Below, one piece after another: positions 1,383 to 53,702 of a stretch of DNA of 64,000 nucleotides. This DNA is from Pseudomonadota bacterium (GTDB taxonomy: Bacteria; Pseudomonadota; Gammaproteobacteria; Burkholderiales; UBA11063): NCBI GenBank assembly GCA_021298175.1, contig JAJTDW010000003.1, positions 26,904 through 90,903 of the forward strand, in the 5' to 3' direction. The stretch's first letter is position 1, and each line of letters starts with the position of its first letter. The notes below the pieces were generated by a model that was given only the letters and a program-made list of their open reading frames with translations, made no database searches and was not told the DNA's origin. The position numbers and the translations under genes were made by a program.

Positions 1383-1505
1383 AACTTCTGATTTTACGAT
1401 AATTTTTTGATGCGTTTACTCTGCAAACCACACAAATAAGCAATAACTAAAGTTTATCCAAATATCATATTTCGAAGAATAAAAGTTTGAAGTATAGATA
1501 TTTTA

Positions 1506-2471
1506 TTAAGTAATCCTATCCACTGATAATTTTGCCAGCTCTTGCATTGCTGATTTGTAAGCAGAATCTGGAAAAATATTAAGTAAATTTAGTGCCTTTG
1601 ATACATAATCATTAGCCATATCAGAACAATACTTAATGGCATTACTATTTTTTACTATATTAGTTATTAGATTAATATCCGTAGCTGTTGGATTATTAAT
1701 TGCCTCAATAATAACCAATTTCACATCTGGCACACCGTGTTCTAAAAGATAAATGAGTGGTAAAGTTACTTTACCCTCTAATAAATCATCGCCTATATTC
1801 TTGCCTAAGTGTGCAGATTCTCCAACATAATCAAGAATATCATCAGCTATCTGAAAAGCTGTACCAATACAACAAGCATATTCAGCTAAAGACTCTTCGA
1901 CTTCTGTGCTACCATGAGCAACAATTGCTGCCACTCTGGCAGCGGCCTCAAATAACACCGCTGTTTTAGAGCGAATAACTGCAAAATATTCTGCCTCAGT
2001 TAAATCACTACGCCCTATATTTAAAAGCTGTAAGACTTCACCTTCAGATATTTGATTGGTACTATTTGCCATGACCTCTAATAGCTTTAAAGATCCACTT
2101 TTAATCATCATCTGAAAAGAGCGAGTATAAATAAAATCACCAACTAATACACTAGCAGCATTACCAAATACTGCATTAGCAGTCTTTCTACCACGGCGCA
2201 TGCCTGATTCATCAACAACATCATCATGGAGTAAAGTTGCCGTATGAATATACTCAATCATAGCAGCCATTTTGTGTAATAACTCCCCATCCACATAACC
2301 AGCTATGCGCCCACATAACATTACCAATAAAGGCCTGATACGCTTGCCACCAGAGTTAATAATATATTCACTAATTTGTCGCACCATAAAAATATTTGAA
2401 GTTAAATCACGCCGAATTACATCATTTAACTGCACTATATCTTCTGACATTAATTTTATTATTTCATCCAT
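1506..2471 (-). CDS. ispB: Octaprenyl-diphosphate synthase
   Basis: GGKRIRP, HTATLLHDDVVDES, FQIADDILD motifs. Confidence 0.93.
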   Translation of the reverse strand: MDEIIKLMSEDIVQLNDVIRRDLTSNIFMVRQISEYIINSGGKRIRPLLVMLCGRIAGYVDGELLHKMAAMIEYIHTATLLHDDVVDESGMRRGRKTANAVFGNAASVLVGDFIYTRSFQMMIKSGSLKLLEVMANSTNQISEGEVLQLLNIGRSDLTEAEYFAVIRSKTAVLFEAAARVAAIVAHGSTEVEESLAEYACCIGTAFQIADDILDYVGESAHLGKNIGDDLLEGKVTLPLIYLLEHGVPDVKLVIIEAINNPTATDINLITNIVKNSNAIKYCSDMANDYVSKALNLLNIFPDSAYKSAMQELAKLSVDRIT

Positions 2472-3207
2472 TAACTAACCAATTCTTAAATTTAGTATGT
2501 ATTACTACAATTCCCGCTATAGCTGCCGTCTCAGCTCGCATAATTAAATTACCCAAATTCATCAAGGAAAAACCCTTAATAATAGCAAGGCTAACTTCAT
2601 CATCTGTAAACCCACCTTCTGGACCTACCACAAGTAAAACTTCATTAAGGTCTGCATCACTAATATTATTACCTAAATCATAAAGTTGTGGAGACATAAT
2701 TATTTTTTTAATTGAAGAAGTTGCACTATATTTAGTTACCAAATCATCAAATTTATGCACTGGGGCAATATCTGGTAATATATTATTACCACATTGTTCA
2801 CAGCTGCTAATAACAATATTTTGCCAATGTAGTATTTTTTTGTCGATTTTATCGTTACTAACTCTTTGCGTACGCTCACTAATTACAGGAATAATCTCTT
2901 GTACTCCAAGCTCAATTGCTTTTTGAATAACCAAATCCATTTTATCATTGGCAATCATACACATTGCTAATTTAATCTGTATTTTATTGGAAATTTTACT
3001 ATCTTTTCTACTAAAGACTTCGGCTATAGCTGATTTTTTATCTAGATTTATTAGCTTTGCTAAATATGCATAACCGTTGCCATTAAATAATTCAAGAGTA
3101 TCTCCATTACGCATCCGTAAAGCATGTAAATGGCGAATAGTATTAATTGGCAAGGTTACTGCCGAATGTAGATCTGACAATACCCCATTAAAGAAAAATC
3201 TAGGCAT
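2464..3207 (-). CDS. rsmE: 16S rRNA m3U1498 methyltransferase
   Basis: HLHALRMR, KAIELGV, VGPEGGF, RAETAA. Confidence 0.95.
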   Translation of the reverse strand: MPRFFFNGVLSDLHSAVTLPINTIRHLHALRMRNGDTLELFNGNGYAYLAKLINLDKKSAIAEVFSRKDSKISNKIQIKLAMCMIANDKMDLVIQKAIELGVQEIIPVISERTQRVSNDKIDKKILHWQNIVISSCEQCGNNILPDIAPVHKFDDLVTKYSATSSIKKIIMSPQLYDLGNNISDADLNEVLLVVGPEGGFTDDEVSLAIIKGFSLMNLGNLIMRAETAAIAGIVVIHTKFKNWLVNG

Positions 3208-3209
3208 GG

Positions 3210-3956
3210 TTATACTTCACCCATTATTTTTAGCTCTTTGGTAATCGCTGACTTAACCTTTTCAGTTAAACTCTCAGCATTATCATCCTTGCTTGGGTAT
3301 ATTGGTTTGCCAATACGAATAGTAACTTTGCCCGGGTATATCCAAAAACTGCGCCTAGGCATAATATGCCCAGCGTTATGCGCAATTGGCACAATTGGAA
3401 TATTTAATTGTAAAGCCATTCTTGCTACCCCTGTTTTATATGGTTGATCAACTCCTGGGGCAACCCTAGTGCCTTCTGGAAACACCATAATTGAGAAACC
3501 ATCTTTAACACGCTCTTTACTCTGAGATAAAATCTGCTGAACAGAAGCCACCCTATCTGAGCGATTAATTGCAATTGGCGACACCATGCGTAATGCCCAA
3601 CCAAAAAATGGCAGATAAATTAGTTCCCGCTTTAAAATCCACACATGTTGCGGTAAAAACACATTAAATGCCATGGTCTCCCAAGTTGATTGATGATTAC
3701 TTGCTAAAATTGCAGGCTCTTTAATTAAATGCTCAATTCCAATAACCTCATAATCCACATTGCACCAATGCTTACCCAAGAAAGTAAATACATTGCCCCA
3801 ACTAGTTAGCATTCTGTGCTTAGCTTTTCTACTTAGGAAGAATAATAAAACCCCCGCTAAATTATATAATGGAATTAACCCCACTAGTACAATCCAAGTA
3901 ATTGTTGAACGAATTTTTATACCCAAAGTTACTTGATTATTTTTTTTATTACTCAT
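3210..3956 (-). CDS. plsC: 1-acyl-sn-glycerol-3-phosphate acyltransferase
   Basis: NHQSTWE, FPEGTR motifs. Confidence 0.92.
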   Translation of the reverse strand: MSNKKNNQVTLGIKIRSTITWIVLVGLIPLYNLAGVLLFFLSRKAKHRMLTSWGNVFTFLGKHWCNVDYEVIGIEHLIKEPAILASNHQSTWETMAFNVFLPQHVWILKRELIYLPFFGWALRMVSPIAINRSDRVASVQQILSQSKERVKDGFSIMVFPEGTRVAPGVDQPYKTGVARMALQLNIPIVPIAHNAGHIMPRRSFWIYPGKVTIRIGKPIYPSKDDNAESLTEKVKSAITKELKIMGEV

Positions 3957-4497
3957 TATCTTTTGCCATTAAATACTCACTAACTTCCAATAAATTTTCA
4001 AATACTAAAGTTCCTGGAGGAACTTTTCCCTTAGATAATGTTTTTTTGCCATTACCTGTTTTAACTAATACAGGAACACCTCCAGCTGCATGTATTGCCT
4101 CTAAATCACGATCACTATCACCTACAAGCATAACATTAGCAATATTTTCCACATTAAAGCGATCACAAATATCAAAAATCATTCCCGGCATTGGCTTTCT
4201 GCAGTTGCAATGATCCTCTGTCTTATGCGGGCAAAAAAATACCGCGGTAATCTCACCACCAGATTGCTCAACCATTTTATGCATCTTCTCATGAATATCA
4301 TTTAACTCTTCAAGAGTAAATAAGCCCCTCCCAATACCTGATTGGTTGGTGCATACTACAATCTTATAGCCTAATTGAGTAATATTAGCTATCGCTTCCA
4401 AACTTTCAGGAATTGGCTCCCATTCCTCAGTGTTTTTAACATATTTATCGCTATCATAATTAATAACGCCATCACGGTCTAAAATAATTAACTTCAT
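3949..4497 (-). CDS. gmhB: D-glycero-D-manno-heptose 1,7-bisphosphate phosphatase
   Basis: LDRDGVIN, TNQSGIGRG, CPH...CNCRKP. Confidence 0.93.
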   Translation of the reverse strand: MKLIILDRDGVINYDSDKYVKNTEEWEPIPESLEAIANITQLGYKIVVCTNQSGIGRGLFTLEELNDIHEKMHKMVEQSGGEITAVFFCPHKTEDHCNCRKPMPGMIFDICDRFNVENIANVMLVGDSDRDLEAIHAAGGVPVLVKTGNGKKTLSKGKVPPGTLVFENLLEVSEYLMAKDNE

Positions 4498-4504
4498 ATA
4501 TTAC

Positions 4505-6592
4505 CTATAAACAAAGCTCAGAAAGTTTACAATAAACATTCATCTCATCATAAACCGCAATTAGTAAACACAAACGATTATTGCGCACCGCTAAATCATC
4601 GTCCATAACCATTACACTATCAAAAAAGTTTGCTATTGGCTGATTAAACTCCTCAAGAACGCTAAAATATTTATCCCAATTATCATAGAAATTCCCATCA
4701 GAGCTGCTGCCCAATAAATCAAATAATCTATTTTCCACAGGATTTTTAAATAAATGTTGATTAACTGTTCGTGCATTTTTTGCCGCACTAGCATTTATTA
4801 TATTTTTCTTTAAAATATTATCAATACGCTTGTTAGCCGCAAAAAGTAACTGATTATTTGGATTAATAGCAAATCTCTCCAACGTATCCAATAACACTGG
4901 TAAATAATAAAACTCTCCTGGAATTGCAGCACAAACACTCTGCACACAATGCTTGCTATAAGAAAACTCATTATTTGATGTTAAATAATTAAATAAGCGT
5001 TGTAATATGAATTGATATACTTCGTCATTTATTCCTGATTTCCAATTTTCACCTGAACCCATAAATTCTGCTGTAGTTACACTCAGTAGCTTCTTAATAT
5101 CAAGATTGTTTTTTAATAGAATCCTCACTACCCCAAGTGCCGCACGTCTTAAAGCAAAAGGGTCCTTGTCTCCCGTTGGTACAAGCCCAATGCCCCAAAT
5201 ACCTACTAATGTTTCTAACTTCTCAGCTAATGCTACTACTGTGGATAAATCATCATTAGGCAAATCATCCCCACTAAATCGTGGATAATAATGCTTTTCA
5301 ATAGCATTTGCAACCTCTATCTTATAACCCCCATGAAGTGCATAATATTTGCCCATAACACCTTGCAATTCTGGAAACTCCCCTACCATTTCGGTGGCAA
5401 GATCCGCCTTCATAAAATTCACAGTGTCTTTTATATCTTGCTCTAATAGAGCAGGATAATATGTATGCACGATGCCAAGAGCTATACGCTTTATCCGCTC
5501 TACTCTATTTAATTGACTACCAAGCTTATTATGATAAACAACATACCCTAATTTTTCTTTATAATAATCTAAACCATGTTTTTTATCTACATCATAGAAA
5601 AATTTTGCATCAGCTAACCTAGCGCTTAAAACCCGTTCATTACCATTGATTATTGTATTGGGCTCTAAAGAATCTATATTTGCTACAAATAAAAACTTAT
5701 TGCTTAACTTTCCTTGAGGATCAAGTAATGCAAAATATTTTTGGTTTTTTGCCATTGATAAAATTAGGCATTCTTGCGGAACATCCAAAAAATTCTCATC
5801 AAAGCTACCCTGCAGCACCACTGGAAACTCAACTAATGCTGTAACTTCATCTAAAAGACCATCCATATCATTTAAAACCAACCCTATTTCATTAGCTATC
5901 TTACGTAAATTATTATTTATAAGATCCTTTCTAATAGAAAAATCTGCAATTACTTTGCCAGATAACTCTAACTGGCTAAAATAACTTTCGGGATGCTTAA
6001 TATGTATCTCGCCAAAGCTCATAATTCTATGCCCAAAAGTATAATGGCTCGGTATTAGACCTAATATTGGCGTAGTTAAATCAATTATTTCGTCCCCATG
6101 CAATATTAGTAAATTATGAACAGGGCGAACAAAGTAGTATTCATTATTACCCCAACGCATATTTTTAGCAATTTGAATCTTTTTCAATGAGTTAGATATT
6201 GCAAACCCTAAAACATCCTGTAAATTACGCCCTTTATTAATCTGTTTAGCATAAAAATACCCGTCTTTTTGTTCCAAATCTTGCCAATTATCCACATTAC
6301 ATGAACGCATAAACCCAAGTAGTGCAGGCAGGGGTAATGAATCTTTAAGTGAAGAATTAATTGCAGGGCCTTTACGCAATAAATAAGCATCTGGTTCAAA
6401 TATGCTGACATCATTTATTACACAACCAAATCTACGCGGAGTAATAATTACCGAAGCTTTAATATCTTCAGGTAAAAAGCTCTTTATTTCAAGGCATATA
6501 TTTTGCATAAAAGCATTACCAATGTTCTTTTCTAAATTTATTGGAGGCAATTCTTCGGTTAAAAATTCTATTAATAAACTTTTAGTATTCAT
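4505..6592 (-). CDS. glyS: Glycine-tRNA ligase beta subunit
   Basis: TEELPP, MRWG, FVRPVH, KADLAT.MVGEFPELQG, DPFALRR. Confidence 0.97.
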   Translation of the reverse strand: MNTKSLLIEFLTEELPPINLEKNIGNAFMQNICLEIKSFLPEDIKASVIITPRRFGCVINDVSIFEPDAYLLRKGPAINSSLKDSLPLPALLGFMRSCNVDNWQDLEQKDGYFYAKQINKGRNLQDVLGFAISNSLKKIQIAKNMRWGNNEYYFVRPVHNLLILHGDEIIDLTTPILGLIPSHYTFGHRIMSFGEIHIKHPESYFSQLELSGKVIADFSIRKDLINNNLRKIANEIGLVLNDMDGLLDEVTALVEFPVVLQGSFDENFLDVPQECLILSMAKNQKYFALLDPQGKLSNKFLFVANIDSLEPNTIINGNERVLSARLADAKFFYDVDKKHGLDYYKEKLGYVVYHNKLGSQLNRVERIKRIALGIVHTYYPALLEQDIKDTVNFMKADLATEMVGEFPELQGVMGKYYALHGGYKIEVANAIEKHYYPRFSGDDLPNDDLSTVVALAEKLETLVGIWGIGLVPTGDKDPFALRRAALGVVRILLKNNLDIKKLLSVTTAEFMGSGENWKSGINDEVYQFILQRLFNYLTSNNEFSYSKHCVQSVCAAIPGEFYYLPVLLDTLERFAINPNNQLLFAANKRIDNILKKNIINASAAKNARTVNQHLFKNPVENRLFDLLGSSSDGNFYDNWDKYFSVLEEFNQPIANFFDSVMVMDDDLAVRNNRLCLLIAVYDEMNVYCKLSELCL

Positions 6593-39858: not shown

Positions 39859-41525
<1,667 letters not shown>

Positions 41526-41791
41526 CTACGCACGCTCAATATCTTTCATTTCTACCCGCATATATGCACCGCCAAGTCTGCCTACATGCACATGATAACG
41601 TTTCAACACTTTCCATAAGTGGGGGGGTAACCCTCTCTAATAGATGAACAACGCCGTGTGACTCTATGTGCATAAGGCGTGAATCATGACGTATAATTAA
41701 AAAATGGAATTGGCATTAAACACATAATTATACACTAAAACATAGCTCTATACTTAAGCAAACAAATTAAAATATCTATCGACTTGATTCG

Positions 41792-42559
41792 TTAAACATT
41801 TAAAGTAATGATTACTGGCGTATGATCAGATGGACGCTCATTCTTACGCGGCTCAATATCTATTTCGCATTGAGTAGCAATGCTCTTTAGGTTATCATTA
41901 ATTAGAATATGGTCTATCCTTAAGCCAAGTTTTCTTCTAAATGCAAAATTACGATAGTCCCACCAGCTATAATTTTTTGGTTCCACGTGAAACAATCTAA
42001 AACTATCACTAAGCCCCAAATTGATCATTTTACCCCATGCTGAGCGTTCTTCATCAGTACACAAAACCTTACCTTGCCATTCTATTGGGTCATATAAATC
42101 AATATCTTGAGGCGCTATATTAAAATCCCCTAATATCATAAAATACTCATGTTTATTTAGGGATTCCTCCACGTAATTAGTCAAGTTCTCTAGCCATGAT
42201 AGTTTATATATAAACTTATCACTAGTTGTTGATTCCCCATTTACTACATAAACACACATTATGCGTACCCCATTTATGGTAGCAGTAATTACCCGCTTCT
42301 GTGGGTCATCAAAACTAGGCATATCCATATAAACGTCATGAATGGGTAGCTTTGATATTATCGCCACTCCATTGTAGGTTTTTTGTCCATTAAATACGCA
42401 ATGATAACCCAAACTAGTAAAAGCCTCTATTGGGAAATTTGCGTTATCTAACTTTAACTCTTGTAATGCCAATACATCACAATTACTTTTTTGCATCCAC
42501 TCTATAACCTGAGGCAACCTCACTTTTAGAGAATTTACGTTCCACGTTGCTATTTGCAT
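41792..42559 (-). CDS. xth: Exodeoxyribonuclease III
   Basis: ATWNVNSLK, LQELK, YNGVAI, GDFNIAP, GLRIDHIL, SDHTPV. Confidence 0.95.
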   Translation of the reverse strand: MQIATWNVNSLKVRLPQVIEWMQKSNCDVLALQELKLDNANFPIEAFTSLGYHCVFNGQKTYNGVAIISKLPIHDVYMDMPSFDDPQKRVITATINGVRIMCVYVVNGESTTSDKFIYKLSWLENLTNYVEESLNKHEYFMILGDFNIAPQDIDLYDPIEWQGKVLCTDEERSAWGKMINLGLSDSFRLFHVEPKNYSWWDYRNFAFRRKLGLRIDHILINDNLKSIATQCEIDIEPRKNERPSDHTPVIITLNV

Positions 42560-51346: not shown

Positions 51347-51704
51347 ATTAGCCGTAAGGCTTTCTAATATTCTACAAATTAACTCAAAAATCATTTTATA
51401 CTCTATTTGATTTCCGTATCACTATTTACTATTTATTGGGTACTATAATTATTATTTATAATGTCAGTTTAATTTTTTAACAATTATTATATTTATGTCA
51501 TTAGTCAAATTTGGGAGAAGTCTACACTATAATGTGACCTGAAAATTGATCCACAGATATAGAAATAAATAATTAGGTTAAAAAATCGCTTTGTAATGTT
51601 AACCAAAGATAGCGTTTTGTGTTGTTTTGTGTACATAATTTCATACTTTGTTAAAGAATGAAATTGTAGATCAAATTATTGGTGGATATGGGGTATTGCT
51701 GCTA

Positions 51705-51752
51705 GTAACTACAAAGCAGATGTCGTACGTAACTACAAAGCAGACGTCATAC
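51705..51752. repeat. 24-bp tandem duplication
   Basis: GTAACTACAAAGCAGATGTCGTAC / GTAACTACAAAGCAGACGTCATAC (22/24). Confidence 0.85.
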
Positions 51753-51821
51753 TGAACTCGTTTCAGCCCCCCCTATAAGAAAGATACTGAATTTCATACG
51801 AGTGTGAAATTCAGTATGACG
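51745..51821. repeat. REP-like palindromic doublet downstream of efp
   Basis: 12-bp terminal IR CGTCATACTGAA/TTCAGTATGACG; inner perfect 13-bp stem 51784-51796/51805-51817. Confidence 0.75.
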
Positions 51822-51887
51822 AAACTCAAATATATAATGGTTGCTAAGTAGTTACTATTGCTACCTCACTTGAAAGGTTATGTTTAA

Positions 51888-52463
51888 TTATTTTCCTTCT
51901 TTATAACGCTCTGAGTACTCTCTAGTGGCGGTCTTCAGAACAATCTTTTCTCCAACATTGACAAAAGAAGGTACAACCACACGAATACCAATATCGAGTA
52001 TTGCTGGTTTATCCATCGCTGTAGCTGTAGCCCCTTTGATTTGAGGGTCAGTTTCCACAACAGTACATACAATTGTTGCGGGAAACTCAACTGCAAGAAC
52101 ACTTCCATCAACTAATTTAAGTTTTACATTAATCCCCTCTGATAAAAATACAACATCATTTCCTATTGTATCTGGAGTAACTGTAATTTGGCTATAATCT
52201 TCCATATTCATGAATATGTAATTTTCACCTTCTTTATATAATAAGGAACACTCAAGCTCTTCTGTTGATAAGCGCTCTATCGAATCAGTTGATCTAAATC
52301 CAACCTGAGCTTTTGAACCCGTTTGAATATTTCTCATTTCAGTTTGTATAACTGCACCACCACCAGTCCCTGATTTAACTGTACGTGTGCTTAATACCGC
52401 AAATTGACGACCATCATGCTGAATAATCCAACCTGAACGAAGATCGACTGCTTTTTCTTTCAT
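51888..52463 (-). CDS. efp: Elongation factor P, atypical (Thr33 at the loop tip)
   Basis: DLRSG.II.HDG, LYKEGENYIFMN..DY.Q, VVETDP.IKGATA, KPAIL..G..V.VP.F...GE.I...T....Y.ER. Start at ATG 52463 after AAAGGA. Confidence 0.9.
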   Translation of the reverse strand: MKEKAVDLRSGWIIQHDGRQFAVLSTRTVKSGTGGGAVIQTEMRNIQTGSKAQVGFRSTDSIERLSTEELECSLLYKEGENYIFMNMEDYSQITVTPDTIGNDVVFLSEGINVKLKLVDGSVLAVEFPATIVCTVVETDPQIKGATATAMDKPAILDIGIRVVVPSFVNVGEKIVLKTATREYSERYKEGK

Positions 52464-52552
52464 ATTGAGTTCCTTTTTATTATTGAAAATATTTTGTTTT
52501 GGGCTAATCAAAGCGGAGTGTTTCTATAAATCTTGCTTCAGAAACCGAAGCA

Positions 52553-53311
52553 TTACATAAGAAACTTACTCGATACATTACTATGTTGCAAAATCCATTG
52601 TTGAATTTCATTTGTCTCTTGCTCTGCAAGTAAGTATTGATTTAATGATGTATTAGCATCATGAAATCGATAGCGCAGAATAACATCTGGTAGATTAGTA
52701 GCCATAATATTTTGTGCAAAAACAAGTCTAGCAAATAGATCATAATCAGTACATACTTTATAGTATGAGTTATATCTCAAAGTATTTAATGCTGACTTAC
52801 GAAACATAACACTCGGATTCAGAAATGGCACTCCGTTAAAAAAGCTTTGCTTTAATTCGTCTATTGAGGATGAAGCCAAATAATTTAATCTCACGCTAGA
52901 TCCGTCTGGATAAAATCCATCAGCTTGTCCACCGACAAAACCAAACTCAGAGTTATCTTTTAAAAATTTAACTTGCTGTTCAAATCTAGTTGAAATACAA
53001 ATATCATCCTGATCCATCATAGCGATAAATGTACCTTGTGCGCGGTTAATTCCAATGTTTGAAGCTATAGCTATGCCACTATTTATTTTGCATGGTATCC
53101 AAATAATTCGGTCATCATTATAGCTTGAAACAATATGCTGCAATCTTGAATCATCTTGTGGGCTATCATTTACAATTAAAAACTCAAAATTTGAATAAGT
53201 CTGCTCAAGCACACTCTCAATAGCGTCTCGTAAATAAATTTCATAAGTTTGATAAATTGGCATCACCACACTAAGTTTGGTATTATTATAATTTATAATT
53301 TCACCCCTCAA
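52553..53311 (-). CDS. Glycosyltransferase family 2 (GT-A)
   Basis: LSVVMPIY, AIESVL.QTY.NFEFLIVND, N.GI..A.G.FIAMMDQDD, RFEQQV.FL. Confidence 0.9.
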   Translation of the reverse strand: MRGEIINYNNTKLSVVMPIYQTYEIYLRDAIESVLEQTYSNFEFLIVNDSPQDDSRLQHIVSSYNDDRIIWIPCKINSGIAIASNIGINRAQGTFIAMMDQDDICISTRFEQQVKFLKDNSEFGFVGGQADGFYPDGSSVRLNYLASSSIDELKQSFFNGVPFLNPSVMFRKSALNTLRYNSYYKVCTDYDLFARLVFAQNIMATNLPDVILRYRFHDANTSLNQYLLAEQETNEIQQWILQHSNVSSKFLM

Positions 53312-53465
53312 ACGTTAGCCCTCATTTTAATGTGCAATGGCAACGATCATATGCCCTAACTGAATTCTAAAACATCTAAATTCAATAAGTTTTCTAAATC
53401 ATAGCCCATAATTATAGCCCACCACAAGTATAATCTGCTGATAATTTTAACCATCATGCCGCCCA

Positions 53466-53670
53466 TTTACTAATGAAATGCAACAGTCATTTTTTTGTTA
53501 GTGCGTAGGTTTCTTTTAACTCATTGCGGGTATTTGCTTATAACCTCGTTAGGATTTCTGTAATTAAGTTCTTTTCTAGGTCGATTATTGATAGTGTTTT
53601 GTACCTGTTATATCTCTTCATCAGTAATTGTATCAAGATAATTATTATAATTTCTTCTCAAGTACTCTGT
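53466..53670 (-). mobile_element. IS30-family transposase C-terminal remnant
   Basis: EYLRRNYNNYLDTITDEEI*QVQNTINNRPRKELNYRNPNEVISKYPQ*; in-frame TAA at 53608-53610; followed by IS30-like end GTTGCATTTCATTAG. Confidence 0.75.
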
Positions 53671-53702
53671 ACGGAATTATAGCAGTATTCCAAACCCCTC
53701 AT

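What the first reader, a model, noticed from the sequence alone, without database searches (positions are those of the whole stretch)
51888..53311. Candidate new EF-P glycosylation system: GT2 gene directly upstream of Thr33-EF-P
Seen: a stand-alone GT-A enzyme (DQDD motif) is co-oriented 89 nt before efp, away from any polysaccharide cluster. The spacer has only a 7-bp hairpin (52534-52552) without a U-tract. Known: EF-P modifiers are typically encoded beside efp (earP, epmA/B), and EarP shows that EF-P can be activated by a sugar. Inference: Thr33 offers a hydroxyl for O-glycosylation by this enzyme. Caveat: the protein looks like an ordinary GT2 and the adjacency may be accidental in an accessory region.
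Basis: inference. Interest (0 to 1): 0.7.

Follow-up and report, generated by a model that had tools for sequence, protein, structure and literature searches.

The report
Thr-tipped EF-P with dedicated glycosyltransferase
In most species of the water bacterium genus Aquella, the essential translation factor EF-P has a threonine where all studied EF-Ps have a modified lysine or arginine, and a small sugar-transferring enzyme stays beside its gene, which points to an undescribed, still unproven, sugar-based way of activating EF-P.

Summary
On the minus strand, a 252-aa soluble GT2 enzyme (53311..52553, DQDD motif) lies 89 nt upstream of efp (52463..51888). The EF-P loop reads KSGTGGGA, with Thr33 at the apex.

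This is the genome's only EF-P. EpmA, EpmB and EarP are absent, although EarP is found in 113 of 151 genomes of the order.

In the genus (38 genomes), 25 carry this Thr-type EF-P and all 25 carry the GT2 orthologue. The two genes are adjacent and co-oriented in 21 of 25, while nearly all other flanking genes differ. Nine genomes have only an Arg-type EF-P, and none of them has the GT2.

The window also holds a decayed remnant of that Arg-type efp (about 41526-41621). The Thr-type pair therefore replaced it.

The closest outside EF-Ps are Lys-type and have EpmA next door. No Thr-tip EF-P and no GT2 orthologue was found outside the genus.

The GT2 is under purifying selection. Its nearest homologues (40-42% identical, about 90 aa longer) sit in polysaccharide clusters.

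Functional coupling is strongly supported. O-glycosylation of Thr33 is an inference and has not been shown. The cultured Aquella oligotrophica P08T appears to carry both genes, so mass spectrometry can decide.

The parts
52553..53311 (-). Gene for a soluble 252-aa family-2 (GT-A) glycosyltransferase, the candidate EF-P modifier
   Evidence: PF00535 E 8e-25. AlphaFold pLDDT 92.7. Foldseek finds a GT-A fold like K4CP, WrtF, SpsA and TarP at about 20% identity. No transmembrane segment, pI 4.9. Orthologues are 63-91% identical with dN/dS 0.07-0.24.
53003..53014 (-). DQDD (DxD-type) metal and nucleotide-sugar motif, residues 100-103
   Evidence: Read from the sequence. D100, D102 and D103 are invariant in 18 orthologues, where the motif is mostly DHDD.
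52464..52552 (-). 89-nt spacer with an 8-bp hairpin (52534-52552) lacking a U-tract, promoter-like motifs and the efp ribosome-binding site
   Evidence: Fold. No terminator hit. Conserved TTGATT, ATATTTTCAATAAT and AAAAAGGAA elements in relatives, where the spacer is 30-286 nt.
51888..52463 (-). efp, the only EF-P gene of the genome (Thr-type)
   Evidence: Three EF-P domains. NF001810 scores 190 bits against a cut-off of 161. Single EF-P hit in a 100%-complete genome.
52353..52376 (-). Codons of the beta3-beta4 loop K30-S31-G32-T33-G34-G35-G36-A37 (Thr33 = 52365-52367)
   Evidence: Invariant in 24 species. The loop is residues 30-37 in the model. T33 aligns with the modified Lys.
51784..51817 (-). 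Terminator-like hairpin with a T-run, 70 nt after the efp stop
   Evidence: The only terminator-like site on this strand in 51600-53700.
41526..41621 (-). Decayed remnant (about 30 codons, with a stop) of the ancestral Arg-type efp, between xthA (41792-42559) and pyrG (40065-41495)
   Evidence: tblastn finds LWKVLKRYHVHVGRLGGAYMRVEMKDIER, 83% identical to residues 21-49 of the intact Arg-type EF-P of G151. It is also reported by the genome search. Intact genes sit at the same efp-pyrG locus in G151, G277 and G330.

Best explanation
The two genes form an EF-P activation module of a new type.

Proposed mechanism (inferred):
- The GT2 is a soluble cytoplasmic GT-A enzyme. It binds a nucleotide sugar through its NDS and DQDD motifs.
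- It recognises the KOW-domain beta3-beta4 hairpin of EF-P.
- It transfers a sugar to the hydroxyl of Thr33 at the loop apex. Ser31 is a less likely acceptor.
- On the ribosome, the sugar would do what beta-lysyl-Lys34 or rhamnosyl-Arg32 do in other bacteria: reach the CCA end of the P-site tRNA and speed up Pro-Pro bond formation.
- The extra glycine in the 8-residue loop would compensate for the short Thr side chain.

Shown here:
- The gene pair exists, and its adjacency is conserved against a shuffled background.
- Thr-type EF-P and the GT2 orthologue co-occur strictly.
- The known modifiers are absent.
- The pair replaced an ancestral Arg-type efp.
- The GT2 is under purifying selection.

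Inferred only: that EF-P is the acceptor, that Thr33 is the site, which sugar is used, and that the sugar is needed for activity.
For: 1. Sole EF-P, and still needed. This is the only EF-P in a 100%-complete 1.66-Mb genome. The proteome keeps polyproline motifs (16 PPP against 17 expected), and ValS keeps PPPNVTG.

2. No known modifier. There is no EpmB. The only EpmA-family hit is LysRS. There is no EarP, although EarP is found in 113 of 151 genomes of the order and in 0 of 4 of this genus.

3. Unique, fixed loop. KSGTGGGA is invariant in 24 species. None of the 149 nearest EF-P clusters, from a library of 1.84 billion representative proteins, has Thr at the tip.

4. Co-occurrence. All 25 Thr-type genomes have the GT2 orthologue. 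It is adjacent and co-oriented in 21 of 25, and absent from all 9 genomes with only the Arg-type.

5. Adjacency against shuffled flanks. There are 12 distinct upstream contexts among 15 loci and 20 distinct downstream contexts among 21 loci. The most divergent orthologue (63% identical) is still followed by efp.

6. Retained when unlinked. Where the genes are separated, the GT2 is kept under purifying selection (dN/dS 0.15-0.21).

7. Replacement. R-type efp remnants lie in the window and in five other Thr-type genomes. One genome has both types intact.

8. Sister group. The nearest outside relatives are Lys-type EF-Ps, and three of five have EpmA divergently adjacent. The slot beside efp is therefore a modifier slot.

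9. Recruited enzyme. The nearest GT2 homologues are 40-42% identical and about 90 aa longer, and they lie in classic polysaccharide clusters. This one is shorter, soluble and stand-alone.

10. Loop context. The -2 residue is Ser (KSGT), as in rhamnosylated KSGR EF-Ps. Lys-type EF-Ps have an invariant Pro there (PMC6544042).
Against: - There is no direct evidence of any modification.
- The GT2 sequence and fold are generic. The best family and structure matches act on glycan or lipid-linked acceptors.
- All Thr-type genomes may form one clade. The 25/25 against 0/9 pattern may then reflect a single gain and is not 34 independent observations.
- Four lineages tolerate separation of the two genes.
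- Conserved promoter-like motifs in the spacer suggest that efp is at least partly transcribed on its own.
- One relative (L017/G333) has the GT2 split over two frames. This could be an assembly error or a real loss.
- With an 8-residue loop, the exact apex (T33 or G34) is ambiguous. A gap-free alignment to the Arg-type loop puts Arg opposite G34.
Confidence: 0.55

Rival explanations
1. The two genes are functionally linked, but not through O-glycosylation of Thr33. The GT2 might glycosylate another EF-P residue (Ser31, Thr26 or Thr28), another translation component, or a small molecule that acts together with the Thr-type EF-P.
For: Adjacency and co-occurrence show coupling only, not the chemistry. 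The loop apex is ambiguous between T33 and G34. The GT2 fold gives no clue to the acceptor.
Against: Thr33 is the residue that replaced the universally modified Lys or Arg. All known EF-P modifiers act on that position (PMC12856214).
Confidence: 0.2
2. The GT2 is an ordinary envelope-polysaccharide or lipooligosaccharide glycosyltransferase. It arrived with, or next to, the Thr-type efp and has stayed adjacent by inertia. The Thr-type EF-P works unmodified through its longer, glycine-rich loop, as EfpL and PGKGP-type EF-Ps work unmodified.
For: - The best family matches are EpsE, TuaG and WcaA, and the fold is generic GT2.
- efp seems to have its own promoter.
- Four lineages have the genes apart.
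- Unmodified EF-Ps exist (PMC12856214).
- The genome makes several NDP-sugars for envelope glycans.
Against: - The GT2-efp junction was broken about twice, while each flanking junction changed at least 11 to 19 times. My rough binomial estimate for this is p about 1e-3 or lower.
- The GT2 has no membrane segment, is about 90 aa shorter than its cluster-borne homologues, and lies outside any glycan cluster.
- Known unmodified EF-Ps keep Lys or Arg at the tip, made rigid by prolines or extended. This loop has neither a basic residue nor a proline.
Confidence: 0.17
3. The Thr-type EF-P is a degenerate or repurposed paralogue that no longer rescues polyproline stalls, so no activating modification is needed.
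For: It is very divergent. It has a long stem branch of 0.61 and scores 185.4 bits against TIGR00038, just below the 185.8-bit cut-off.
Against: - It is the sole EF-P in most of these genomes.
- It is under strong purifying selection (dN/dS 0.07-0.09).
- PPP motifs are not depleted, and the ValS PPP motif is kept.
- The ancestral Arg-type copy was lost repeatedly in its favour.
Confidence: 0.04

Closest known systems
EarP / EF-P(Arg32) rhamnosylation (GT104; Pseudomonas, Shewanella, Neisseria and most Burkholderiales)
   Same: A dedicated cytoplasmic glycosyltransferase is encoded beside efp and would put a sugar on the tip of the beta3-beta4 loop. The loop context is K-S-G-X, with Ser rather than Pro at -2 (PMC6544042). 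It occurs in the same bacterial order.
   Different: EarP is a GT-B enzyme (PF10093) that N-glycosylates arginine with dTDP-rhamnose. Here the enzyme is a GT-A GT2, the acceptor would be a Thr hydroxyl (O-linkage), the loop is one residue longer, and no EarP is present.
EpmA/EpmB/EpmC beta-lysylation of EF-P Lys34
   Same: The modifier gene is adjacent to efp. The closest outside relatives of this EF-P are of this type, with EpmA next door.
   Different: The chemistry is entirely different: an aminoacyl-tRNA-synthetase paralogue adds beta-lysine to a lysine. EpmA and EpmB are absent here, and the lysine is replaced by Thr.
Unmodified EF-P types (actinobacterial PGKGP subfamily; EfpL/YeiP with an extended Arg loop)
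   Same: The loop is longer than the canonical 7 residues, as in EfpL. No classical modifier is present.
   Different: Those types keep Lys or Arg at the tip. EfpL models score below their cut-offs here (151 against 216 bits). This loop is glycine-rich, has no basic tip residue and has a conserved enzyme partner.
Polysaccharide GT2 enzymes (EpsE, TuaG, WcaA, SpsA, WrtF, K4CP GT-A domains)
   Same: Same Pfam family, the same GT-A fold and the same DxD and (E/D)DxD-type motifs.
   Different: Scores are far below every equivalog cut-off. The protein is shorter, stand-alone and outside glycan clusters, and it co-inherits with efp.
Glycocin S-/O-glycosyltransferases (SunS, ThuS, GccA), which I recall from my own knowledge to be CAZy GT2
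   Same: They are a precedent for GT2-family enzymes that glycosylate Ser, Thr or Cys in a loop of a ribosomally made peptide, encoded next to the substrate gene (glycocins: PMC12457901).
   Different: Their substrates are secreted bacteriocin precursors, and the enzymes carry extra C-terminal domains. No specific sequence or fold similarity was detected here.

Membership tests
Glycosyltransferase family 2 (GT-A fold) | PF00535 domain match above the gathering score | tested here: met
   88.1 bits against a cut-off of 23.3.
Glycosyltransferase family 2 (GT-A fold) | GT-A Rossmann-like fold with a DxD motif | tested here: met
   AlphaFold pLDDT 92.7. Foldseek E 1e-16 to K4CP, WrtF and SpsA. DQDD at residues 100-103, with D100, D102 and D103 invariant in orthologues.
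Named polysaccharide GT2 equivalogs (EpsE, TuaG, WcaA and others) | Score above the NCBIfam equivalog cut-off | tested here: not met
   The best score is 96.5 bits against a 450-bit cut-off.
EarP (GT104) EF-P arginine rhamnosyltransferase | PF10093 domain / GT-B fold | tested here: not met
   No hit in the genome. The search works, since it finds EarP in 113 of 151 genomes of the order. The enzyme here has a GT-A fold.
EarP-type EF-P | Arg at the loop tip | tested here: not met
   Thr33.
Elongation factor P | KOW domain plus two OB domains (PF08207, PF01132, PF09285) | tested here: met
   All three are above their cut-offs. NF001810 scores 190 bits against 161. TIGR00038 scores 185.4 bits against 185.8, which is borderline.
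Elongation factor P | Lys or Arg at the beta3-beta4 loop tip | tested here: not met
   The loop is KSGTGGGA. The 149 nearest clusters have K, R, N or Q at the tip, never T.
EfpL / YeiP | Score above the NF003392 or TIGR02178 cut-off; SPTARGAA-type loop | tested here: not met
   151.5 bits against 216, and 143.3 bits against 264.
EpmA/EpmB beta-lysylation system | epmA and epmB present in the genome | tested here: not met
   Only LysRS is found, as a 514-aa frame scoring 233 bits, below the 287-bit cut-off. There is no EpmB.
EF-P post-translational activation system (generic) | Modifier gene co-occurs and is genomically linked with its EF-P type | tested here: met
   Co-occurrence 25 of 25, adjacency 21 of 25, and 0 of 9 in genomes with only the Arg-type.
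EF-P post-translational activation system (generic) | Covalent modification of the loop-tip residue, required for activity | not testable with these tools
   This needs mass spectrometry and reporter assays.

The most novel reading that the evidence does not exclude
Aquella activates its only EF-P by O-glycosylating Thr33 with a dedicated GT-A (GT2) enzyme. This would be a further, chemically distinct EF-P activation strategy. It would also be the first in which the loop tip carries no basic residue, so the sugar alone would have to supply the contact to the P-site tRNA. The module would have arisen from an EpmA-type Lys EF-P and displaced an Arg-type EF-P within one genus.
Probability: 0.5. 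Interest if true: 0.85.

Novelty: new variant of a known kind. Interest (0 to 1): 0.78.

Why it matters
EF-P/eIF5A activation is a textbook case of the same problem, reaching the peptidyl-transferase centre, being solved by unrelated chemistries: hypusine, beta-lysine, rhamnose and 5-aminopentanol. A January 2026 review lists no modification on a hydroxyl residue (PMC12856214).

A Thr-linked sugar made by a GT-A enzyme would matter in three ways:
- It would add a new chemistry and a new enzyme family to this list.
- It would show that a basic tip residue is dispensable.
- It would give a natural example of a modification system being switched. The sister group uses EpmA, the order uses EarP, and the ancestral Arg-type gene is caught decaying in the same window.

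It would also add a bacterial cytoplasmic protein O-glycosyltransferase with a single defined substrate. A cultured strain appears to carry both genes, so the hypothesis can be tested directly.

Tried and rejected
- Known modifiers in the genome: EarP, EpmA and EpmB were not found. The EarP negative was validated in the order.
- Thr-tip EF-Ps outside the genus: none turned up in a word-based search of 5.8 billion proteins, an HMMER scan of 1.84 billion representatives, or a pattern scan of 185,579 species genomes.
- GT2 orthologues outside the genus: none. The next best hits are at most 42% identical.
- Origin of the Thr-type by duplication of the genus's own Arg-type EF-P: rejected. The tree groups it with alphaproteobacterial Lys-type EF-Ps, with support 0.83-0.96.
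- Phage or mobile origin: no relatives in viral contigs, no repeats bracketing the pair, and no compositional anomaly (GC3 0.22-0.23, like the neighbouring genes).
- Specific structural likeness of the GT2 to protein glycosyltransferases: Foldseek returned only generic GT2 enzymes.
- Co-transcription: not settled. There is no terminator in the spacer, but relatives show conserved promoter-like motifs.
- Complex prediction: no multimer tool was available.
- One tree script gave no answer and was rerun with FastTree.

Full report
**What is there**

Both genes lie on the minus strand. A 252-aa ORF (53311..52553) is a family-2 glycosyltransferase:
- It matches PF00535 at 88 bits.
- It has an NDS motif at residue 48, DQDD at 100-103 and DYD at 189.
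- It has no hydrophobic segment, and its pI is 4.9.

Eighty-nine nucleotides downstream, efp starts at the ATG at 52463 and ends at 51888. It encodes 191 aa with all three EF-P domains.

The spacer holds an 8-bp hairpin at 52534-52552 with no U-tract. The only terminator-like site on this strand follows efp, at 51817..51784.

The beta3-beta4 loop reads K30-S31-G32-T33-G34-G35-G36-A37. HMMER aligns T33 with the modified lysine of solved EF-Ps. An AlphaFold model (pLDDT 87.7) puts residues 30-37 between strands 19-29 and 38-45, so T33/G34 are the apex.

Nothing within about 8 kb is a polysaccharide gene.

**The organism and its EF-P repertoire**

The window lies in a 1.66-Mb, 32.7% G+C, 100%-complete assembly. 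Relatives are labelled Neisseriaceae, Burkholderiales or Aquella.

One genome of the same GTDB genus is a single contig of 2,820,660 bp. That is exactly the chromosome length published for Aquella oligotrophica P08T (PMC6612550, abstract seen). I take the genus to be Aquella, on the basis of this length match.

This efp is the only EF-P in the genome. Known modifiers are missing:
- There is no EpmB.
- The only EpmA-family hit is the 514-aa LysRS.
- There is no EarP. That negative is meaningful, because the same search finds EarP in 113 of 151 genomes of the order and in none of four genomes of this genus.

EF-P is still needed. PPP motifs are not depleted (16 observed, 17 expected), and ValS keeps PPPNVTG.

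**Linkage test**

A scan of species-representative genomes found 23 relatives with EF-P 87-94% identical. All have the invariant loop KSGTGGGA.

In 20 of the 23, the GT2 orthologue (66-85% identical) lies directly upstream and co-oriented. None of the window's other genes appears in their flanks, apart from alr and dnaB about 4 kb away in L017.

Clustering all flanking ORFs gave these counts:
- 12 distinct upstream contexts among 15 loci.
- 20 distinct downstream contexts among 21 loci.
- Shared flanks only between very close species pairs.

The GT2-efp junction therefore survived while both neighbouring junctions were rebuilt many times. Synonymous divergence between these genes is 0.45 to above 2. 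My rough binomial estimate for at most 2 of about 32 breaks falling on the middle junction is about 1e-3 or lower (inference).

The most divergent orthologue found in metagenomes (63% identical) is also followed by the efp start.

**Genus-wide phyletic pattern**

Among 38 genomes of the genus:
- 25 have the Thr-type EF-P, and the same 25 have the GT2 orthologue.
- The genes are adjacent in 21 of 25. They are unlinked in G305 (P08T, 555 kb apart), G309, G320 and G315.
- Nine genomes have only a different EF-P, 33-36% identical, with the loop HVHVGGRGGAYMQVEMK. I call this the R-type. It sits at an efp-pyrG locus. None of the nine has the GT2 orthologue (for two of them).
- One genome, G330, has both types intact.
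- Four incomplete genomes show neither.

In the unlinked genomes, the GT2 is still under purifying selection (dN/dS 0.15-0.21).

Caveat: if the Thr-type genomes form one clade, the co-occurrence counts as about one evolutionary event. The stronger evidence is the conserved adjacency.

**Replacement caught in the window**

Between xthA (41792-42559) and pyrG (40065-41495) lies a fragment of about 30 codons. It reads LWKVLKRYHVHVGRLGGAYMRVEMKDIER and is 83% identical to residues 21-49 of the intact R-type EF-P. Stop codons flank it.

Similar decayed remnants occur in five other Thr-type genomes. The Thr-type efp plus GT2 therefore coexisted with the ancestral R-type efp and then repeatedly displaced it. 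This argues that the Thr-type is a fully competent EF-P.

**Origin**

In an HMMER scan of 1.84 billion representative proteins, the Thr-type forms one isolated cluster. The next hit drops from 381 to 137 bits. None of the 149 nearest clusters has Thr at the tip.

A FastTree phylogeny places the Thr-type inside a group of uncultured alphaproteobacterial Lys-type EF-Ps with the loop (I/V)(Q/K)PGKGGAF. Support is 0.83-0.96, and the stem branch is long at 0.61.

In three of those five relatives, the gene divergently adjacent to efp is EpmA (TIGR00462, 359-377 bits against a cut-off of 287). The lineage therefore went from 'Lys tip with EpmA next door' to 'Thr tip with one extra Gly and a GT2 next door'.

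The -2 residue also changed from Pro to Ser. Pro at -2 is invariant in Lys-type EF-Ps and selected against in rhamnosylated Arg-type EF-Ps, which read KSGR (PMC6544042).

**The enzyme**

The AlphaFold model is confident (pLDDT 92.7). Foldseek returns generic GT-A GT2 enzymes at about 20% identity: K4CP, WrtF, SpsA, TarP, AvpGT and heparosan synthase. All NCBIfam equivalogs score far below their cut-offs.

Orthologues are confined to the genus. The nearest non-orthologues are 40-42% identical and 341-348 aa long. They sit in classic multi-GT, ABC-transporter polysaccharide clusters.

The catalytic acidic residues are invariant in 18 orthologues, and dN/dS is 0.07-0.24. The genome has GalU-, RmlA-, RfbF- and ManC-like enzymes, so several NDP-sugars are available. 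The donor is unknown.

**Interpretation**

Functional coupling of the GT2 and the Thr-type EF-P is strongly supported. The most economical mechanism is O-glycosylation of Thr33 by the GT2, by analogy with EarP. This remains an inference, and I give it about 0.55.

The rivals are:
- Coupling through another acceptor (0.2).
- An unrelated envelope GT2 beside an unmodified EF-P (0.17).
- A degenerate EF-P (0.04).

Points against the best reading:
- The enzyme is generic.
- efp probably has its own promoter, because the spacer holds conserved motifs.
- Four lineages have the genes unlinked.
- One relative has the GT2 split over two frames.

**Literature**

A January 2026 review lists beta-lysylation, Arg-rhamnosylation, 5-aminopentanolylation, unmodified PGKGP-type EF-Ps and EfpL (PMC12856214). 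No Thr-type or GT2-linked EF-P appears there, in PMC11388002, in PMC12931083, or in full-text searches.

Earlier notes of this scan mention other GT-A or GT2 genes next to efp in other phyla. I did not test them, and they are leads only.

**Limits**

No complex prediction and no mass data were available.

Noticed in passing
window 41526-41621 (minus strand), between pyrG 40065-41495 and xthA 41792-42559: A pseudogene remnant (about 30 codons) of a second, Arg-type efp (loop HVHVGRLGGAY) lies at the locus where same-genus genomes G151, G277 and G330 have an intact gene.
   Followed up: yes
L084:1489-2052, L085:1486-2049, L147:3888-4454; also L044, L046, L048 (Burkholderiaceae MAGs): An Arg-type EF-P has an 8-residue VGGRGGA loop and no EarP in the genome. 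It may be another unmodified or unknown-modifier EF-P subtype. It has no conserved modifier neighbour and sits at an efp-pyrG locus.
   Followed up: partly
L146 (G330:C1:130000-139500) and L147 (G330:C2:86000-94000): One 3.5-Mb genome of the genus carries both the intact Arg-type efp and the Thr-type efp with its GT2. It is a natural intermediate for comparing the two factors.
   Followed up: partly
L145:3820-6102, L103:2410-4693, L107:2413-4690: In the genomes where the GT2 is unlinked from efp, including the apparent A. oligotrophica type strain, it follows hrpA, nagB (glucosamine-6-phosphate deaminase) and a lipoprotein gene, all co-oriented. This may hint at an amino-sugar donor, or it may be coincidence.
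   Followed up: no
window 52464-52552 and the homologous spacers of L006-L028: The GT2-efp spacer contains conserved promoter-like elements (TTGATT... and TGTACAAT or TGTAAAAT extended -10 boxes). efp may therefore have its own promoter despite the conserved adjacency.
   Followed up: partly
own genome, contig C40 about 1500-5400 (outside the window): valS reads as two frames: a 119-aa N-terminal piece with PPPNVTG, then a 758-aa piece. About 45 residues seem to be missing at the join. This could be an assembly error, a frameshift or a lineage-specific deletion.
   Followed up: no
L017:4195-4943 (same genome as G333:C2:12773-13488): The GT2 orthologue is split into 178-aa and 91-aa frames in one relative. 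This could be a pseudogene or a sequencing error.
   Followed up: no
window 51705-51752: Two tandem copies of a 24-nt unit (GTAACTACAAAGCAGAYGTCRTAC) lie just beyond the efp terminator. An inverted partner of the unit's start lies at 51842-51857.
   Followed up: no
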